From Escherichia phage vB_Eco_slurp01, in the sequence record LT603033: a stretch of DNA of 64,000 bases. One strand, written 5' to 3'. Every line of letters begins with the position of its first letter. Position 1 is the first letter of the stretch. The notes under the pieces are model-generated. The model was not told where the DNA came from and did not search any database. It was given only the letters and a program-made list of their open reading frames with translations. The position numbers were made by a program, and so were the translations under genes. This document shows, piece after piece, positions 46,232 to 63,788 of the stretch.

Positions 46232-46259
46232 TTGCAAACTATGTTTAACGGCGTATAAT
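46232..46259 (+). promoter_or_regulatory. sigma70-like early promoter
   Basis: TTGCAA, 16 bp spacer, TATAAT, then GTTTTACATC and 5'-UTR hairpin GCGGGAA-CAC-TTCCCGC. Confidence 0.6.
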
Positions 46260-46314
46260 GTTTTACATCGAGAGCGGGAACACTTCCCGCTACATATTAC
46301 GAGAGATTAAAACG

Positions 46315-46677
46315 ATGGCGACTCAAATCACTAAAATTATTGCTAACCTGGTTAACTTTCGCGACGAGATGAAAGATCTTCCGGCAGAAACGGTAAAAAT
46401 TCACATTGCAGCTTATCGGGAACTTATTGCAATGTTACCTCTTAAGCGTGAACAATACGCCGCTACCGTGATGCTTGATGCGATGATCCATAAGATGATC
46501 GCCAGTGATTTAACGATGGTTTATCAGTATATGGGCGAAAATTTCGCGGTGTATAGTAAACCAGTACCAGGAATGGAAAGTACAGAAGTATTACACGGTT
46601 TAAATTTAAAACAAGATGCATGGGATAATATGCCTCGTTTCCTGGTATGGGCTGACAGTGGCAAAATTTACGAATAA
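46315..46677 (+). CDS. hypothetical protein
   Basis: ATG at 46315 downstream of promoter/hairpin; track N-extension is promoter translated. Confidence 0.6.
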   Translation: MATQITKIIANLVNFRDEMKDLPAETVKIHIAAYRELIAMLPLKREQYAATVMLDAMIHKMIASDLTMVYQYMGENFAVYSKPVPGMESTEVLHGLNLKQDAWDNMPRFLVWADSGKIYE

Positions 46678-46691
46678 GTTTAATAAAGTAC

Positions 46692-46719
46692 TTGCAAACT
46701 ATGTTTAATGGCGTATAAT
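46692..46719 (+). promoter_or_regulatory. sigma70-like early promoter
   Basis: TTGCAA + 16 bp + TATAAT; hairpin TGGGGAA-TAG-TTCCCCA downstream. Confidence 0.6.
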
Positions 46720-46770
46720 GTTTTACATCAGGTGGGGAATAGTTCCCCACTATATAAGAGGATTAAAAAA

Positions 46771-47010
46771 ATGGCTAAATCAAAAATGTTCTTAGGTCAC
46801 AAAAACAAAACTCATTGGAATGTAAGCCTTTGGATTAATAACGATGAATCATTATACCGGTTGGCCCTGGACTTTATTGCCGCCAATACTAATCGCAATG
46901 ATGCGGCCCGTCATATGATGTTATTTTTAGAACAGACTGGACAAGATAAAACACCGGACGGATTCAAATATAGCACTACTGCGATCCGTGCGGCAATGGT
47001 TGGAATGTAA
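46771..47010 (+). CDS. hypothetical protein
   Basis: RBS AGAGGA; 79 aa. Confidence 0.6.
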   Translation: MAKSKMFLGHKNKTHWNVSLWINNDESLYRLALDFIAANTNRNDAARHMMLFLEQTGQDKTPDGFKYSTTAIRAAMVGM

Positions 47011-47098
47011 TAGAATAGAATTTATTTAAAGTACTATTGCACGGGGATAGTACTTTATAATAGTGTTTTATTCATACACCAACGATAAGGGCAACAGC

Positions 47099-47365
47099 AT
47101 GAATATTAAGTATTTTGCGACGCGTGAACAAGCTCGGATCGCCGCACGCCAGGACGGGGCAACGTTTAAAGATATGGGCGTACAATCGGAACGTGGTAAA
47201 CGTTGGGCCATTGTAAAGCGTAGTACCGCCAGATCATTACAGTACTGGTTAGCGGCCTTAAAAAGACCCGATAGTGTATCGCGACGAGTGGTAGAAATAA
47301 AGCTCGACCGAAAGGGCAACCGCGTGACCGTGTACCGTACTAAAAAGATTGCAGTACTTGAATAA
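47099..47365 (+). CDS. hypothetical protein (paralog of 58556..58951)
   Basis: Shares FYATRE.AR..AR.DGA.FKDMG...RW and RKGNRVTVY motifs with 58556 ORF. Confidence 0.65.
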   Translation: MNIKYFATREQARIAARQDGATFKDMGVQSERGKRWAIVKRSTARSLQYWLAALKRPDSVSRRVVEIKLDRKGNRVTVYRTKKIAVLE

Positions 47366-47372
47366 AAAGTAC

Positions 47373-47400
47373 TTGCAAACTATGTTTAAAGGCGTATAAT
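47373..47400 (+). promoter_or_regulatory. sigma70-like early promoter
   Basis: TTGCAA + 16 bp + TATAAT; hairpin GCGGGAA-CTC-TTCCCGC downstream. Confidence 0.6.
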
Positions 47401-47452
47401 GTTTTACATCGAGAGCGGGAACTCTTCCCGCCTATAACCTGGAGTAATAAAA

Positions 47453-47683
47453 ATGACTAATATGTATATGACTGAAGTTAAAACCGTAAAAGATACTACC
47501 ACGAATAAAACTACTTACTTACAGCGGATCTGTGGTGTATGGCAACGTATCAGCAAATCAAAGTACTTTAAATTAACATCATATGCAAACCGTTCGGATT
47601 CATTCAGTACTGAAATAAAAGGTAATAAAGTACACCAATACGGCACTTATTATTATTATAGCCTGGACGCGATTGCAGTATAA
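47453..47683 (+). CDS. hypothetical protein
   Basis: RBS GGAG; 76 aa. Confidence 0.6.
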   Translation: MTNMYMTEVKTVKDTTTNKTTYLQRICGVWQRISKSKYFKLTSYANRSDSFSTEIKGNKVHQYGTYYYYSLDAIAV

Positions 47684-47930
47684 GCAGTTTACAAATCTTT
47701 ACAATTGCCGGTATTGACTTATTTTGTCAGTACTGGCATAATGTATTCATTGGCAGATAAGCCGTAGCCCATAGGGTGCGGGAGTGTATCTATAGAAAAA
47801 GTAGTTTATTACAGTTACAATTGTGCACCCGGTGGGTTAGCTGTTGTCATGGGGTATATTATGCCAGTACTGGATAGTGCTGTCAATACCTTTTTACTAT
47901 TCAGTACTGAAAACTATTTTTAAAAAGTAC

Positions 47931-61454: not shown

Positions 61455-61540
61455 AAAGTACTTGCATTGTAGTTAGATTAACGTATAATGTTTTACATAG
61501 AGCGGGGGAATAGTTCTCCCGCCAGTCCGGGAGATACACC

Positions 61541-61807
61541 ATGAACACTATCGAAATCACTATCAATGCACACGTATACGACAACGTAGTACTGCAAACT
61601 ACTATGACCGCTAATGATACCAGTACTTTGCGGAATACCGTTGTAAGTGCTGTATGTGCTGCAATCGGTGATGTAGCCCTGGAAAATGCAGAACACATCA
61701 ACAACGGTTTCACTATGTGCAAACGTGATAACGCAAAACATATCATCTTAGAAGGTTACGGCGGTGTAGAATATAATCTTTATATGAAAAAAGTACTTGC
61801 AAAGTAA
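61541..61807 (+). CDS. hypothetical protein
   Basis: Promoter/hairpin/RBS module; 88 aa. Confidence 0.6.
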   Translation: MNTIEITINAHVYDNVVLQTTMTANDTSTLRNTVVSAVCAAIGDVALENAEHINNGFTMCKRDNAKHIILEGYGGVEYNLYMKKVLAK

Positions 61808-61872
61808 CTAAAACAAAGTATAATGTTTTGCATAGGGGGAGATATCCTCCCCCACTAATAAGGAGTACTAAA

Positions 61873-62097
61873 ATGGCTAACTTTGATGAACTGATGCGGG
61901 AAGTAGCTAACCTGGCAGAAGAGAAGAAATCATTCGATTCTATCTATAACACCGCTTACAGTGATTCAGTACTGGCATGTACTCAGGATCAAAAAGATGA
62001 ACTAATCGCCACATATCATGAAGCATGGAAGTACTACCGCCAATGGGAGAAAGAAGAAAGCGAGTCTACCATCAACGGCATCAATAATCTAATCTAA
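61873..62097 (+). CDS. hypothetical protein
   Basis: RBS AAGGAG; 74 aa. Confidence 0.6.
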   Translation: MANFDELMREVANLAEEKKSFDSIYNTAYSDSVLACTQDQKDELIATYHEAWKYYRQWEKEESESTINGINNLI

Positions 62098-62172
62098 AGT
62101 TTTATTTCAGTACTATTGACATAGCTTGATAGTACTGATATGATAACTTTACTAACTACAAGGGGAAACATC

Positions 62173-62430
62173 ATGGAACAATTCACACAATATCGGGTAA
62201 ATCCTCAAGCTATGGCCTACGTAGAAGACCATAAAACGTTACCAGTACTGCAACCAGTTAAAGGCCATATCTATCGTGCGATGGCGTGGAGTACTGCCCA
62301 GGATGGCTATAAAACCGTTGCCGTTGGTATGTACTGCGGTAATGGTGAATGGTTTGATCCAAATAATCCGGTAGCAATTGACAGTACTGAAAAAATGAAA
62401 TGGGCCGACTACATCGAAGATATTTCATAA
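62173..62430 (+). CDS. hypothetical protein
   Basis: Promoter TTGACA...; RBS AAGGGGAAA; 85 aa. Confidence 0.6.
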   Translation: MEQFTQYRVNPQAMAYVEDHKTLPVLQPVKGHIYRAMAWSTAQDGYKTVAVGMYCGNGEWFDPNNPVAIDSTEKMKWADYIEDIS

Positions 62431-62520
62431 AAACTATTTGACAGTACTAACCAGTAATGTATAATGTTTTACATAGAGCGGGGGAATAGTTCTCCCGCCA
62501 ATAGTTTGGAGTAAAACATT

Positions 62521-62721
62521 ATGTCTATCGCTCTCGCCCTGGTTGAAGTACTGAAAGAAGCTAAAGCCAACCTTATCGATGTACAGATTAAGGAATTGCA
62601 AAATGGTTTAATCGGCTGTACTTGTACCGCTGGTGGAGCGGCAGACTATCGAGAACACGAATCACTAGAATCGTTGGTCCGGTATCTTACAATCATCGTA
62701 GAAGATTGGAGAATCATCTAA
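62521..62721 (+). CDS. hypothetical protein
   Basis: Hairpin GCGGGGGAA-TAG-TTCTCCCGC upstream; 66 aa. Confidence 0.55.
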   Translation: MSIALALVEVLKEAKANLIDVQIKELQNGLIGCTCTAGGAADYREHESLESLVRYLTIIVEDWRII

Positions 62722-62738
62722 CAAAAAAGAATAAAAAA

Positions 62739-62771
62739 GGGATTGACTCCGGTCAGTCCCTTTGCTATTAT
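62739..62771 (+). promoter_or_regulatory. stem-loop/promoter hybrid (variant)
   Basis: GGGATTGACTCCGGTCAGTCCC + TTTGC + TATTAT. Confidence 0.55.
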
Positions 62772-62964
62772 ATACGCATAGACAAAAACTAGCCCACAGG
62801 GTGCATAGGTGTATCTAAAATATATAGTTAATAACGGTGAGTAACTATCTGCTGGTGGAGTGAAAACTATTAATAAAAAGTATTGACAAAGTATATCAGT
62901 ACTGCAATAATGTATCTCGTAGGGCGGCAATGGTGCGACGGTCCACAAAGTTAGGAGATTCAAA

Positions 62965-63297
62965 ATGAGTACTTCAATCGCTATCGTTAAAGCTTTCATC
63001 CGTACCAATGTTTCATCTGTATTCATCGACGGTCTGGATCGGGAAGTAGAATACTCAATCATTATCGCACAGACTGCAAACGGTGCTCGGTATATCCTTA
63101 ATGATAGTGAAGCAAATCACTACTACTTCACTAAAGCTACTGGCTTTAAACGCATCGATGCTGACGTAGTATACGCTAAGATGAATAAGCTGGTAGACAA
63201 GATTAACGCGAAAGGTACTATCGATTTACAGTACTGGACCGAAACCGATCCAGAATATGGATCTCACCGCTACCTGAATCCAGGTATTAAAATGTAA
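62965..63297 (+). CDS. hypothetical protein
   Basis: RBS TAGGAGA; 110 aa. Confidence 0.65.
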   Translation: MSTSIAIVKAFIRTNVSSVFIDGLDREVEYSIIIAQTANGARYILNDSEANHYYFTKATGFKRIDADVVYAKMNKLVDKINAKGTIDLQYWTETDPEYGSHRYLNPGIKM

Positions 63298-63386
63298 AAA
63301 GTACTTGCATAGTACTTAGAATCAAGTATAATGTTTTACATAGAGAGGGGGAAATGGTTCTCCCTCCTAAATTAAGGAGTTTTATC

Positions 63387-63788
63387 ATGACCTTCTCAAT
63401 CAATTCCTTCGCTGACGTTTTAGTACTGGCTCGGACTTTTGGTAAAGATGCACTGGAGTACGCTGTAAGTAATGGTACTATCCAACCGGAACAGTGCCGC
63501 ATCATTGGAAACTGCAAACGTTGGGCGGTATCCAATACTATTGCACTGGAAAACTTCCACGATGGCAACAATGAATATTCTGTTGATGTAGTATTCGAAG
63601 CCGTTGATCTCGGCGGTATCTATAATACTAACCTGAATGATGTGCGTATCGTTCGCACGGGGTTCGGTGCTTATGATGTATCTATTCGTGAAGCTATGAA
63701 CACCGGATACATTAGCAAGGACTTACTTGCTCACATCATGCAGCTGTGTACGGAACGTAACGAAGCACGCACTATCTTAGGACTGTAA
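63387..63788 (+). CDS. hypothetical protein
   Basis: RBS AAGGAG; 133 aa. Confidence 0.65.
   Translation: MTFSINSFADVLVLARTFGKDALEYAVSNGTIQPEQCRIIGNCKRWAVSNTIALENFHDGNNEYSVDVVFEAVDLGGIYNTNLNDVRIVRTGFGAYDVSIREAMNTGYISKDLLAHIMQLCTERNEARTILGL

What the first reader, a model, noticed from the sequence alone, without database searches (positions are those of the whole stretch)
46232..63387. Stereotyped early-gene module: promoter, 5'-terminal hairpin (GGGGAGAA-loop-TTCTCCCC or GCGGGAA-loop-TTCCCGC), RBS, small ORF
More than 30 genes in the right third start with (A/T-rich)-TTGCAA/TTGACA-16/17 bp-TATAAT-GTTTTACATC. Within about 10 nt of the predicted start site lies a 6-8 bp G-rich stem with a 3-4 nt loop, then AAGGA and ATG. 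Stem sequences differ between copies but stay complementary (for example GCGGGAA/TTCCCGC, TGGGGAA/TTCCCCA, GGGGAGAA/TTCTCCCC), which is covariation evidence for a conserved 5' RNA structure. The hairpins lack U-tracts, so they are not terminators. Likely roles are mRNA 5'-end protection against RNase E-type decay or a recognition site for a phage RNA-binding regulator or endoribonuclease.
Basis: seen in the sequence. Interest (0 to 1): 0.6.

Follow-up and report, generated by a model that had tools for sequence, protein, structure and literature searches.

The report
Early-promoter 5' hairpin cassettes, jumbo phage
In the terminal-repeat early region of a 121Q-like jumbo coliphage, 23 small genes each start with the same cassette (strong host-type promoter, short conserved RNA hairpin, ribosome site); the hairpin is real and evolutionarily maintained, resembles known phage promoter/stem-loop cassettes and 5' mRNA stabilisers, but its function is still untested.

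Summary
The window is an Asteriusvirus (121Q/PBECO4-like jumbo coliphage), and 44.5-64 kb corresponds to its ~21-kb direct terminal repeat. About 43 strong sigma70-type promoters face rightward there. Twenty-three of them carry a 6-9 bp, G-rich stem with a 3-5 nt loop, starting 8-14 nt after the -10 box. An unpaired Shine-Dalgarno sequence and ATG follow. Chance expectation for such a hairpin is 2-5%. The hairpin goes almost only with the 16-bp-spacer promoter class. It has no U-tract. Pairing covaries, and wobble pairs are nearly all G·U on the sense strand. Stems diverge about 5% between orthologues; loops diverge about 15%. Klebsiella, Salmonella and Erwinia relatives keep the same layout with different stem sequences. 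A covariance model finds the hairpin only in this early region across 350 kb of a relative. Homology-block ends between relatives cluster at the cassettes. Best reading: a cis-acting RNA hairpin near the 5' end of one class of early mRNAs, probably a stabiliser or insulator. The repeated cassette also serves as a linker for gene-cassette shuffling, as PeSLs do. The function is inferred only. With the predicted start site, 1-6 nt stay unpaired, which weakens the simple 5'-protection model. It is a new variant of a known kind.

The parts
46232..46317 (+). Class-I promoter/hairpin/RBS cassette 1
   Evidence: TTGCAA-16-TATAAT; hairpin 46273-46291 AGCGGGAA-cac-TTCCCGCT; ATG 46315. First cassette of the array, with no plus-strand gene directly upstream.
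46692..46773 (+). Cassette 2
   Evidence: Hairpin 46731-46751 GGTGGGGAA-tag-TTCCCCACT; ATG 46771.
47373..47455 (+). Cassette 3
   Evidence: Hairpin 47415-47431 GCGGGAA-ctc-TTCCCGC; ATG 47453.
48733..48815 (+). Cassette 4 (-35 box TGGACA)
   Evidence: Hairpin 48774-48792 AGCGGGAA-tag-TTCCCGCT; ATG 48813.
48988..49068 (+). Cassette 5
   Evidence: Hairpin 49028-49047 GGGGAGAA-atgg-TTCTCCCT, with a G·U at the stem base; ATG 49066.
49456..49532 (+). Cassette 6
   Evidence: Hairpin 49492-49510 (TA)GGGGAG-cgg-TTCCCC(TG); ATG 49530. It lies downstream of the true terminator at 49292-49314, so it is not needed as a 3' end for an upstream gene.
49772..49853 (+). Cassette 7
   Evidence: TTGATA-16-TACAAT; hairpin 49814-49830 GGGGGAG-cgg-TTCCCCC; ATG 49851.
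51075..51159 (+). Cassette 8
   Evidence: Hairpin 51115-51134 AAGGGGAA-acgg-TTCTCCTT, with an internal G·U; ATG 51157. It follows the terminator at 50894-50915.
51393..51472 (+). Cassette 9
   Evidence: Hairpin 51433-51452 GGGGAGAA-atga-TTCTCCCC; ATG 51470.
52906..52987 (+). Cassette 10
   Evidence: Hairpin 52948-52963 GGAGAA-atag-TTCTCC. This is the weakest copy (GTGGAGAA has one mismatch, -5.8 kcal/mol). ATG 52985.
53135..53215 (+). Cassette 11
   Evidence: Hairpin 53175-53194 GGGGAGAA-atga-TTCTCCCC; ATG 53213.
53722..53803 (+). Cassette 12
   Evidence: Hairpin 53763-53781 AGGGGAAA-cgg-TTTCCCCT; ATG 53801. It follows a small-RNA-like element.
54156..54237 (+). Cassette 13
   Evidence: TTGACA-16-TATAAT; hairpin 54196-54214 GGGGAGAA-tag-TTCTCCCC; ATG 54235.
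55852..55929 (+). Cassette 14 (the only copy with a 17-bp spacer)
   Evidence: TTGACA-17-TATAGT; hairpin 55891-55909 AGGGGAA-acatc-TTCCCCT; ATG 55927.
56473..56552 (+). Cassette 15
   Evidence: Hairpin 56513-56532 GGGGAGAA-atga-TTCTCCCC; ATG 56550.
57782..57868 (+). Cassette 16
   Evidence: Hairpin 57824-57842 GAGGGGAA-tgg-TTCCCCTC; ATG 57866. The 121Q locus carries GTGGGGAA/TTCCCCAC at a similar cassette, an A-U to U-A double difference.
58052..58139 (+). Cassette 17
   Evidence: Hairpin 58094-58113 GAGGGGAA-acgg-TTCCCCTC; ATG 58137.
60608..60690 (+). Cassette 18
   Evidence: TTGCAT-16-TATAAT; hairpin 60649-60668 AGGGGGAA-atgg-TTCTCCCT, with a G·U; ATG 60688.
60913..60996 (+). Cassette 19
   Evidence: Hairpin 60953-60971 GGGGAGAA-tag-TTCTCCCC; ATG 60994. 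Two homology blocks with fEgEco12 overlap over exactly this cassette (60908-61006), which is the signature of a cassette insertion flanked by the module.
61462..61543 (+). Cassette 20
   Evidence: Hairpin 61502-61522 GCGGGGGAA-tag-TTCTCCCGC; ATG 61541.
61797..61875 (+). Cassette 21
   Evidence: Hairpin 61835-61853 GGGGGAG-atatc-CTCCCCC; ATG 61873.
62438..62523 (+). Cassette 22
   Evidence: Hairpin 62478-62498 GCGGGGGAA-tag-TTCTCCCGC; ATG 62521.
63305..63389 (+). Cassette 23
   Evidence: Hairpin 63345-63366 GAGGGGGAA-atgg-TTCTCCCTC; ATG 63387. In the minimum-energy fold the helix reaches nt 2 of the predicted RNA.
47931..48050 (+). Long-leader variant of the same promoter class
   Evidence: TTGCAA-16-TATAAT-GTTTTACATC. 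The predicted RNA folds with a closing helix AUCAGG/CCUGAU that starts at the predicted +1 and encloses two hairpins. A second, hairpin-less promoter at 48049 follows.
57326..57445 (+). Second copy of the long-leader variant
   Evidence: Same architecture as 47931, with compensatory differences in the inner hairpin.
14719..14796 (+). Single similar cassette outside the terminal-repeat region
   Evidence: TTGACA-16-TATAAT, hairpin 14757-14775 GGGATGA-acttc-TCATCCC, then SD and ATG. Its homologue in TH47 lies at about 128.9 kb.

Best explanation
The cassettes are the transcription and translation start modules of one class of immediate-early genes. These genes lie in the ~21-kb direct terminal repeat of an Asteriusvirus jumbo coliphage and are read by host sigma70 RNA polymerase. 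Each cassette has the following layout:
- an A/T-rich upstream tract;
- a -35 box (TTGCAA or TTGACA);
- a 16-bp spacer;
- a TATAAT -10 box;
- a conserved start region (..TTTACAT.., with the start site probably at the A of CAT);
- a 6-9 bp stem with a G-rich 5' arm;
- an A-rich linker, then SD and ATG of a small, mostly orphan gene.

The hairpin works as RNA on the sense strand, in cis, near the 5' end of its own transcript. I think its most likely job is post-transcriptional. It would give these short mRNAs a stable 5'-proximal structure that slows 5'-end-dependent decay (RppH and RNase E). It would also keep the ribosome site in a constant, unpaired context, whether the RNA starts at its own promoter or reads through from upstream.

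A second role is separable and better supported. The ~85-bp repeated cassette is the homology at which gene cassettes are gained, lost and swapped between related phages.

Shown here: the anatomy, the selection for pairing, the strand, the link to one promoter class, and the clustering of breakpoints.
Inferred: the start site and any effect on stability or translation.
For: Structure:
- All 23 copies form the hairpin.
- Covariation is 0.405 against 0.184 in shuffles, with 0 of 500 shuffles as high. In 58 distinct hairpins from 9 loci, all 9 pairs covary (0.49 against 0.21).

Sense-strand RNA:
- G·U to U·G is 36 to 2.
- In stems scored without favouring wobble, there are 12 G·T against 3 A·C or C·A mismatches.

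Selection:
- Between orthologues, stems diverge 4.5-4.7%, like the -35 box (4.5%). The loop diverges 15.3% and the spacer 12.5%.
- 27 stem changes preserve pairing and 15 break it.

Conservation across genera, with different stems at the same position:
- Klebsiella phage Muenster, Salmonella phage Munch, Escherichia phage EJP2 and Erwinia phage Hallingskeid.

Tied to the 5' end rather than to the ribosome site or to an upstream 3' end:
- The hairpin is found only behind promoters. No promoter-less gene junction gave a model hit.
- It is also present right after true terminators, as in cassettes 6 and 8.
- 22 of 29 promoters with a 16-bp spacer have it, against 1 of about 14 with a 17-bp spacer.

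Folding:
- All 20 predicted leaders fold into one 5'-proximal hairpin with SD and AUG free.
- In the long-leader variants the closing helix starts exactly at the predicted +1.
- The conserved +2 is U, and RppH prefers a purine there (PMC8833179).

Precedent:
- 5' stem-loops stabilise ompA and T7 gene 10 mRNA. Adding the T7 phi10 stem-loop to a sigma70-driven leader quadrupled GFP output (PMC2254391; PMC3997798).

Shuffling:
- 24 of 45 homology-breakpoint clusters against four relatives fall within a cassette +/-15 nt. The expected share is 15% (p = 3e-9).
Against: - No transcript ends or half-lives are available for any phage of this clade.
- With the predicted start site, 1-6 nt (median about 4) stay unpaired. 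RppH and RNase E need only 2 or more and prefer 3 or more (PMC8833179), so protection would be partial at best.
- A plain stem-loop inside a 5' UTR barely hinders RNase E scanning (PMC11194081).
- Stability alone does not explain why the 5' arm is always the G-rich one. It also does not explain why the stem sequence is so uniform within a genome.
- About 20 neighbouring early promoters have no hairpin.
- The breakpoint enrichment is measured against all sequence. Because cassettes fill most intergenic space, it cannot be separated from selection against breakpoints inside genes.
- The set of 58 hairpins was chosen for forming a hairpin, so its percentage of paired cells is biased upward.
Confidence: 0.4

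Rival explanations
1. The hairpin is a recognition tag for a trans-acting factor, either a phage early or middle protein or a host protein. The factor would handle the whole class-I regulon together. Possible actions are shut-off by arresting polymerase on the nascent hairpin (Nun-like), endonucleolytic processing (RegB-, Cas6- or Csy4-like), translational repression next to the SD (like the T4 gp43 operator), or antitermination (N/boxB-like).
For: - The hairpin is restricted to one promoter class and to the early region. Genome-wide model hits in TH47 all fall within 88-104 kb of 350 kb.
- Within a genus, the stem sequence is far more uniform than pairing alone requires. The arms are always G-rich 5' and pyrimidine-rich 3', and GAA/TTC at the stem top is nearly invariant in Asteriusvirus.
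- It sits immediately upstream of the SD.
- The region encodes candidate effectors: a DksA/TraR zinc-finger protein, a protein kinase and a ParE/RelE-fold protein.
- Coordinated early shut-off is a general need of large lytic phages (established knowledge: T4 RegA and RegB, HK022 Nun).
Against: - The loop is the most variable part of the cassette. It diverges 15.3% and shows at least 11 different loops in 23 copies. This argues against loop-reading proteins of the N/boxB, MS2 or CsrA kind.
- Stem sequences differ between genera, for example AGAGATTCCA/TGGAATCTCT and GGGAATGAA/TTCATTCCC. Any reader would have to co-evolve or recognise shape only.
- No RNA-binding or nuclease family was identified among the 30 proteins scanned; most are orphans.
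- The stems are too short (6-9 bp) for RNase III (established knowledge).
Confidence: 0.25
2. The hairpin is a classic PeSL-type composite element. In this view it is an attenuator or terminator, or a 3'-end protector, for transcription coming from the upstream gene. The promoter then restarts transcription, and the repeat drives recombination.
For: - Cassettes sit between tandem small orphan genes in a hyperplastic region, as PeSLs do (PMC2839356, PMC4122927).
- G-run/C-run stems resemble the RB49 stem-loops, one of which cut lacZ read-through as strongly as rrnB T1 (PMC2839356).
- Breakpoints cluster at the cassettes.
- The same region holds true composite terminator/promoter elements at the small-RNA promoters (53592, 57200, 62736).
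Against: - In all 23 copies and in all relatives, the hairpin lies downstream of its own -10 box and predicted start. A terminator there would abort its own gene's transcript.
- No hairpin is followed by a T-run; the tails are A-rich.
- The position is fixed relative to the promoter, not to the upstream stop codon.
- Hairpins are present where a real terminator has already ended upstream transcription (cassettes 6 and 8) and at the first gene of the array.
Confidence: 0.1
3. The element acts at the DNA level. It could be a palindromic operator for a dimeric repressor over +5 to +25, a cruciform, or an N4-type hairpin promoter for a phage polymerase.
For: - The site is a near-perfect inverted repeat placed where a repressor would block elongation.
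- N4 early promoters are 5-7 bp hairpins with 3-nt loops (established knowledge).
Against: - Mirrored (compensatory) changes across copies indicate base pairing, not half-site recognition.
- The wobble asymmetry of G·U 36 to U·G 2 is meaningless for duplex DNA. The minus-strand hairpin would carry A·C mismatches instead.
- The related jumbo phage PA5oct depends on host RNA polymerase (PMC7318152).
- Consensus sigma70 promoters sit directly upstream of every hairpin.
Confidence: 0.05
4. The hairpin has no present function. It would be a palindromic passenger that spread with a duplicating promoter cassette.
For: The cassettes are clearly paralogous and spread by recombination. Relatedness inflates shuffle-based covariation statistics.
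Against: - Stems are as conserved as the -35 box, while the adjacent loop and spacer drift three times faster.
- Pair-preserving changes are in excess.
- The same position is kept with unrelated stem sequences in four further phage lineages whose DTR kinase is only 36-41% identical.
Confidence: 0.05

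Closest known systems
PeSL (promoter-early stem-loop) cassettes of T4-like phages RB49/phi1, PST/T4 and nt-1/KVP40 (Arbiol et al. 2010, PMC2839356; Comeau et al. 2014, PMC4122927)
   Same: - A repeated ~80-100 bp cassette with an A/T tract, a near-consensus sigma70 early promoter, a G-run/C-run stem-loop, SD and ATG.
- Placed in front of small orphan genes in hyperplastic regions.
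- Indel and replacement joints between close relatives fall in the cassette.
   Different: - In PeSLs the stem-loop lies upstream of, within or overlapping the promoter. It is read as the terminator or attenuator of the upstream gene.
- Here it is always 8-14 nt downstream of the -10 box, inside the cassette's own transcript, and has no U-tract.
- The host phage is a RaK2/121Q-type jumbo phage, not a T4-like one.
- The cassettes are concentrated in the direct terminal repeat.
5'-terminal stabilising stem-loops: E. coli ompA hp1, papA, and the phage T7 phi10 (gene 10) leader (PMC3997798, PMC2254391)
   Same: - A short G+C-rich hairpin near the mRNA 5' end, followed by an A/U-rich linker and a strong SD.
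- The T7 phi10 hairpin GGGAGACC-ACAAC-GGUUUCCC has the same style: a G-rich 5' arm, an internal G·U, and even the ACAAC loop seen in the Munch, EJP2, Muenster and Hallingskeid copies.
   Different: - Those hairpins start at or within about 2 nt of +1. Here 1-6 nt are predicted to be unpaired.
- The jumbo-phage model scores the T7 hairpin at only 4.4 bits, so this is an analogue, not a homologue.
- Stabilisation has not been measured here.
Lambda nut boxB / HK022 Nun target and put RNAs (promoter-proximal RNA hairpins that reprogramme RNA polymerase)
   Same: An RNA hairpin encoded shortly downstream of early promoters and acting in cis on the transcribing polymerase.
   Different: - boxB is defined by a conserved loop read by N or Nun. 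Here the loop is the least conserved element.
- One hairpin per gene in more than 20 tandem monocistronic units makes antitermination unnecessary.
- put RNAs are two-hairpin elements of about 70 nt.
Intrinsic (Rho-independent) terminators
   Same: A G+C-rich stem of 6-9 bp with a short loop. One real terminator in the region (58974-58992, GGCGGGA-tcag-TTCCCGCC plus TTTTTT) has an almost identical stem.
   Different: None of the 23 hairpins has a T-run; the tails are A-rich. They also lie downstream of their own promoters.

Membership tests
PeSL cassettes (T4-like phages) | Near-consensus sigma70 early promoter with an A/T-rich upstream tract | tested here: met
   TTGACA or TTGCAA, N16, TATAAT. 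The 20 nt upstream are A/T-rich and the most conserved part of the cassette (3.3% divergence).
PeSL cassettes (T4-like phages) | Stable stem-loop (G-run/C-run) as part of the repeated cassette | tested here: met
   23 of 23 copies, -5.8 to -13.5 kcal/mol. Covariation supports the stem.
PeSL cassettes (T4-like phages) | Stem-loop placed upstream of or overlapping the promoter, so that it terminates or attenuates upstream transcription | tested here: not met
   The stem always starts 8-14 nt downstream of the -10 box. No T-run follows, and none is flagged terminator-like.
PeSL cassettes (T4-like phages) | Located in hyperplastic regions in front of orphan genes | tested here: met
   Relatives cover only 42-72% of the region, in 4-14 aligned pieces. 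24 of 30 proteins scanned have no Pfam family.
PeSL cassettes (T4-like phages) | Indel and replacement joints between close relatives coincide with the cassette | tested here: met
   24 of 45 breakpoint clusters lie within a cassette +/-15 nt, against 15% expected (p = 3e-9). Caveat: this is not separable from a general preference for intergenic joints.
PeSL cassettes (T4-like phages) | Formation of excised mini-circles by recombination between cassettes | not testable with these tools
   This needs inverse PCR on infected cells.
5'-terminal stabilising stem-loops (ompA, T7 phi10) | [quoted passage not shown] | tested here: inconclusive
   Predicted leaders have 1-6 unpaired nt, median about 4. 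The long-leader variants have 0. The start site is predicted, not mapped.
5'-terminal stabilising stem-loops (ompA, T7 phi10) | Structure rather than sequence is what matters | tested here: met
   Compensatory changes occur, and the stems are unrelated across genera.
5'-terminal stabilising stem-loops (ompA, T7 phi10) | Lengthens mRNA half-life in an RNase E/RppH-dependent way | not testable with these tools
   This needs rifampicin-chase half-lives with stem mutants.
5'-terminal stabilising stem-loops (ompA, T7 phi10) | Sequence or structure homology to the T7 phi10 hairpin | tested here: not met
   Model R1 scores the phi10 leader at 4.4 bits, E = 0.3 in 201 nt.
Intrinsic terminator | G+C-rich hairpin immediately followed by a U-tract | tested here: not met
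   0 of 23 pass the terminator scan. The true terminators at 49292, 50168, 50894 and 58974 do pass.
Lambda-type nut/boxB site | Conserved loop sequence recognised by the antiterminator | tested here: not met
   At least 11 different loops of 3-5 nt occur. The loop diverges 15.3%, against 4.6% for the stems.
Any curated RNA family (Rfam 15) | Match at the gathering threshold | tested here: not met
   0 matches in the whole window.

The most novel reading that the evidence does not exclude
The hairpin could be an address label that marks one regulon of immediate-early transcripts for a dedicated factor. That factor would be a phage-encoded protein, or a hijacked host one, that recognises the G-rich stem shape next to the 5' end. 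It would then switch the whole class off or process it at the early-to-middle transition, by arresting polymerase on the nascent hairpin or by cleaving or capping the leader. This would be a stem-reading global regulator of phage early mRNAs, with no described counterpart in RaK2/121Q-type jumbo phages.
Probability: 0.15. Interest if true: 0.7.

Novelty: new variant of a known kind. Interest (0 to 1): 0.45.

Why it matters
Jumbo phages of the RaK2/121Q group carry hundreds of unannotated early genes, and almost nothing is known about how those genes are expressed.

This analysis defines at least three promoter classes in the terminal repeat. One class is coupled to a selected 5' RNA hairpin that is conserved across phages of Escherichia, Klebsiella, Salmonella and Erwinia.

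That provides three things:
- A simple rule for annotating early transcription units.
- A compact natural promoter/leader part whose effect on mRNA life and translation can be tested directly.
- Evidence that PeSL-style cassette shuffling operates outside the T4-like phages. This would help explain why the terminal repeats are the most mosaic part of these genomes.

If the hairpin proves to be a regulatory tag, it would expose a new layer of early-gene control.

Tried and rejected
- Rfam gathering search of the whole window found nothing, and there are no tRNAs.
- MAFFT alignments of whole cassettes or of hairpins were out of structural register because loops differ in length. RNAalifold on them gave only a weak 6-pair consensus. 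I therefore used loop-trimmed, ungapped alignments (A5, A6) and a covariance model.
- An exact-pattern scan of IMG/VR for TATAATGTTTTACAT returned mostly chance hits in A/T-rich viruses. Only a few relatives were among them.
- Pfam scans of 30 early proteins gave no RNA-binding or nuclease candidate. The named hits were a ParE/RelE-fold protein, a DksA/TraR zinc finger and a kinase, alongside two domains of unknown function and two sub-threshold matches.
- Literature searches found no description of these hairpins and no transcript maps for the clade. I checked the RaK2, CBB, phAPEC6, fEgEco12, Sharanji, UE-S1 and PA5oct papers.
- Rejected, terminator: no U-tract, and the hairpin lies downstream of its own promoter.
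- Rejected, RNase III site: the stems are too short.
- Rejected, duplex-DNA operator or N4-type hairpin promoter: wobble asymmetry, compensatory change, and consensus sigma70 promoters directly upstream.
- Rejected, SD-sequestering switch: SD and AUG are unpaired in all 20 minimum-energy folds.
- Rejected, homology to the T7 phi10 hairpin: 4.4 bits.

Full report
**What the window is**

Megablast of 46-56 kb hits 183 phage records. Nearly all of the best matches are Escherichia jumbo phages of the genus Asteriusvirus, such as BF17 (94%), 121Q (90%), JP4 and fEgEco12. Coverage is only 42-72%, in 4-14 pieces. The kinase gene at 59872-60453 is 100% identical to those of phAPEC6 and UB.

Window position 44519 aligns with nucleotide 1 of fEgEco12. 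That phage's physical ends were determined experimentally and carry a 20,993-bp direct terminal repeat, or DTR (PMC13070987). The finding therefore lies entirely inside the DTR-equivalent early region.

In fEgEco12 the genes within the DTR are separated by 60-90 nt gaps. Past 21 kb the genes are tightly packed.

**Checking the observation**

A pattern scan and the promoter tool agree. The region holds about 43 strong plus-strand sigma70-type promoters. Overall there are 98 promoter-like sites against 61.8 +/- 5.8 in shuffles, and the high-scoring ones are almost all on the plus strand.

Twenty-three of these promoters, not more than 30, are followed by a hairpin. The measured anatomy is:
- gap from the -10 box to the stem, 8-14 nt;
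- stem 6-9 bp, loop 3-5 nt;
- energy -5.8 to -13.5 kcal/mol;
- 16-23 nt from the stem to the ATG, with a purine-rich SD in between.

By the same criterion, hairpins occur in 1.6% of random windows elsewhere in the window and in 4.7% of dinucleotide shuffles of the same segments.

A hairpin-only covariance model (R1) was run without filters over all 64 kb. It recovers all 23 on the plus strand. Its other plus-strand hits are two genuine terminators, three promoter-embedded hairpins and a few marginal matches.

None of the 23 passes a terminator scan, whereas four true plus-strand terminators in the region do.

**Is it a structure, and on which strand?**

I built an ungapped alignment in which loops were trimmed to three bases, because the loops are not part of any pair (A5). 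On it:
- 88% of cells pair, against 78% in shuffles.
- Six of nine pairs change on both sides.
- The covariation score is 0.405, against 0.184 in shuffles (0 of 500) and at most 0.18 for all slid registers.

With 58 distinct hairpins from nine loci, all nine pairs covary. The score is 0.49 against 0.21, and additional pair types number 28 against 19.4, both 0 of 500. That set was chosen for forming a hairpin, so its paired percentage is biased upward. The unbiased statistic is the 23 of 43 promoters above.

Wobble pairs are almost all G in the 5' arm and U in the 3' arm (36 to 2). When G·T and A·C mismatches are allowed equally, there are 12 G·T against 3 A·C or C·A. This is what sense-strand RNA predicts. 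It is not what duplex DNA or the antisense strand predicts.

**Selection**

I compared orthologous cassettes in four relatives. Divergence by feature is:

| Feature | Divergence |
|---|---|
| Upstream A/T tract | 3.3% |
| -35 box | 4.5% |
| Spacer | 12.5% |
| -10 box | 2.2% |
| Start region | 8.4% |
| Stem arms | 4.7% and 4.5% |
| Loop | 15.3% |
| Linker plus SD | 8.6% |
| Coding sequence | 6.2% |

Stem changes preserve pairing 27 times and break it 15 times. Several of the breaks are alignment artefacts where the hairpin was replaced.

So the stem is under purifying selection and the loop is not.

**Depth of conservation**

The DTR kinase locates the equivalent regions in more distant jumbo phages, at 36-41% protein identity. 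Several of them keep the layout of a 16-bp-spacer TATAAT promoter, a ..TTT(A/G)CAT.. start region and a hairpin at the same distance, but with different stems:
- Klebsiella phage Muenster: GGGGATACA/TGTATCCCC, AGAGATTCCA/TGGAATCTCT, GGGAATGAA/TTCATTCCC, GGGGCAA/TTGCCCC.
- Salmonella phage Munch.
- Escherichia phage EJP2.
- Erwinia phage Hallingskeid: GGGGAGAG/CTCTCCCC, GGGGGTA/TATCCCC, GGGAAGAG/CTCTTCCC.

Xanthomonas phage XbC2 shows none.

**Link to a promoter class and to the 5' end**

Across the loci, 92 hairpin promoters have a 16-bp spacer and 3 have a 17-bp spacer. In the window the figures are 22 of 29 against 1 of about 14.

Two other promoter classes never carry the hairpin:
- A class with a 17-bp spacer, an extended -10 (TGnCATAAT) and the start region ACTTACATCAA.
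- A TTGACT-N17-TATTAT class that drives a small-RNA-like element.

Promoter-less gene junctions gave no model hit. These include the genes starting at 52428, 52706, 53452, 56143, 56869, 57039 and 61263. Hairpins are present right after real terminators (cassettes at 49456 and 51075) and at the first gene of the array.

The element therefore belongs to the transcript's own 5' end. It does not belong to the ribosome site as such, nor to the upstream gene's 3' end.

A genome-wide run of R1 over 350 kb of the relative TH47 places every hit with E of 1 or less between 88.3 and 104.3 kb, the DTR-equivalent region, on the coding strand. The one exception is a weak hit near 199.8 kb. A promoter/hairpin scan agrees and adds the homologue of the lone cassette at window 14719.

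**Predicted RNA**

I took the conserved A of CAT as +1. It is the 8th base after the -10 box and has a pyrimidine at -1, the standard sigma70 preference (established knowledge). With that start, all 20 leaders tested fold into a single hairpin beginning 1-6 nt from the 5' end, and SD and AUG are unpaired.

Two long-leader variants of the same promoter class (47931 and 57326) fold so that a closing helix AUCAGG/CCUGAU starts exactly at the predicted +1. This fits both the start-site prediction and a theme of 5'-end structure.

**Mechanism**

The best-supported statement is that this is a cis-acting RNA stem near the 5' end of one class of immediate-early mRNAs.

The most economical function is stabilisation and insulation:
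- 5' stem-loops protect ompA, papA and T7 gene 10 mRNAs from the RppH and RNase E pathway (PMC3997798).
- Transplanting the T7 phi10 stem-loop into a sigma70-driven leader quadrupled output (PMC2254391).
- The T7 hairpin GGGAGACC-ACAAC-GGUUUCCC is strikingly similar in style, down to the ACAAC loop found in several relatives. The jumbo-phage model scores it at only 4.4 bits, so the two are analogues.

The weakness is quantitative:
- RppH and RNase E need only 2 or more unpaired 5' nucleotides and prefer 3 or more (PMC8833179).
- A plain stem-loop is a poor obstacle to RNase E scanning (PMC11194081).
- With 1-6 unpaired nucleotides, protection would be partial unless the true start is closer to the stem.
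- The conserved U at +2 is a mildly unfavourable RppH substrate (PMC8833179).

I put this mechanism at about 0.4.

A trans-factor tag (0.25) would better explain the uniform G-rich/pyrimidine-rich polarity and the class specificity. It fits poorly with the variable loop and with stems that differ between genera.

The remaining rivals are an attenuator/terminator (0.1), a DNA-level element (0.05) and a functionless passenger (0.05). Each is disfavoured by the tests above.

**A second, better-documented property: cassette shuffling**

I took the ends of megablast homology blocks between the window and fEgEco12, 121Q, TH47 and ECO103 4-12-1. They form 45 clusters, of which 24 lie within a hairpin cassette +/-15 nt. 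The expected share is 15% (p = 3e-9).

Most of the remaining clusters lie at hairpin-less promoters or terminators. Successive blocks shift diagonal by roughly 200-460 bp, about one small gene cassette. At 60908-61006 two blocks overlap over exactly one cassette.

This is the PeSL pattern described for T4-like phages (PMC2839356, PMC4122927). The caveat is that cassettes occupy most of the intergenic space, so a general tolerance for intergenic joints cannot be excluded.

**Comparison with known systems and novelty**

The closest family is PeSL. Five of its features are met: the promoter, the stem-loop, the hyperplastic context, the orphan genes and the breakpoints. The defining position and role of the stem-loop is not met. 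In PeSLs it lies upstream of or within the promoter and acts as a terminator. Here it lies in the 5' leader and has no U-tract.

True PeSL-style composite terminator/promoter hairpins do occur in the same region, but at the small-RNA promoters (53592, 57200, 62736).

None of the clade's genome papers held in the library mentions promoter-linked hairpins. The CBB paper reports only 18 RpoD-like promoters with UP elements. The PA5oct paper reports host-polymerase dependence and DTR ncRNAs.

I therefore class this as a new variant of a known kind, of moderate interest.

Noticed in passing
window plus strand about 47714, 53599, 55261, 57207, 60475, 62743; minus strand about 47886, 49422, 45683, 45898; also L001-L004, L129, L130: A multi-copy small-RNA-like element: a TTGACT-N17-TATTAT (or CATAAT) promoter followed about 25 nt later by a conserved ..AGCCCACAGGGTGCA..GTATCT.. 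hairpin motif. It is conserved from Asteriusvirus to phages of Klebsiella, Salmonella, Erwinia and Xanthomonas. It has no Rfam match. PA5oct is reported to have highly expressed ncRNAs in its DTR (PMC7318152).
   Followed up: partly
window 53592-53619, 57200-57227, 62736-62763: The -35 box of three small-RNA promoters sits inside a 12-bp terminator-like hairpin (AAAGGGATTGACTCCGGTCAGTCCCTTT) followed by GCTATTATAT. This is a true composite terminator/promoter, the classic PeSL layout.
   Followed up: partly
whole window: The palindrome AGTACT occurs 284 times against 23.5 +/- 4.7 expected, about 12-fold over-represented. It appears in coding and non-coding sequence, abuts the -35 box (AAAGTACTTGCAA) and lies inside promoter spacers (TAGTACTGTATAAT). 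The reason is unknown.
   Followed up: partly
window 47931-48050, 57326-57445, 50239-50390: Class-I promoters followed by long structured leaders or small RNAs (about 75 nt, closed by AUCAGG/CCUGAU). In two cases a second, hairpin-less promoter follows before the gene.
   Followed up: partly
window 46060-46200: About 2.5 tandem copies of a 53-bp repeat (CAGTACTGAATAATAGTACTCCTATATAGAAAGATAGTTCCCCTGGATGGTTG) lie just upstream of the first cassette, about 1.5 kb inside the predicted left genome end at 44519.
   Followed up: no
window 59014-59268, 55588-55845, 59872-60456: Early-region proteins with recognisable domains: a ParE-like/RelE-fold toxin domain (E = 6e-11), a DksA/TraR C4 zinc finger (E = 2e-10) and a small Ser/Thr-kinase-like protein. 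They are candidate host-takeover factors. A gene in the same DTR of Klebsiella phage Muenster is annotated as a YafQ-like ribonuclease toxin; its relationship to the ParE-fold gene here was not tested.
   Followed up: partly
window 24000-44500 versus 44500-64000: GC skew and coding strand flip at about 44 kb. This coincides with the position that aligns to the physical left end of fEgEco12. The window therefore probably spans the junction created by collapsing or circularising the terminal repeat in the assembly.
   Followed up: no
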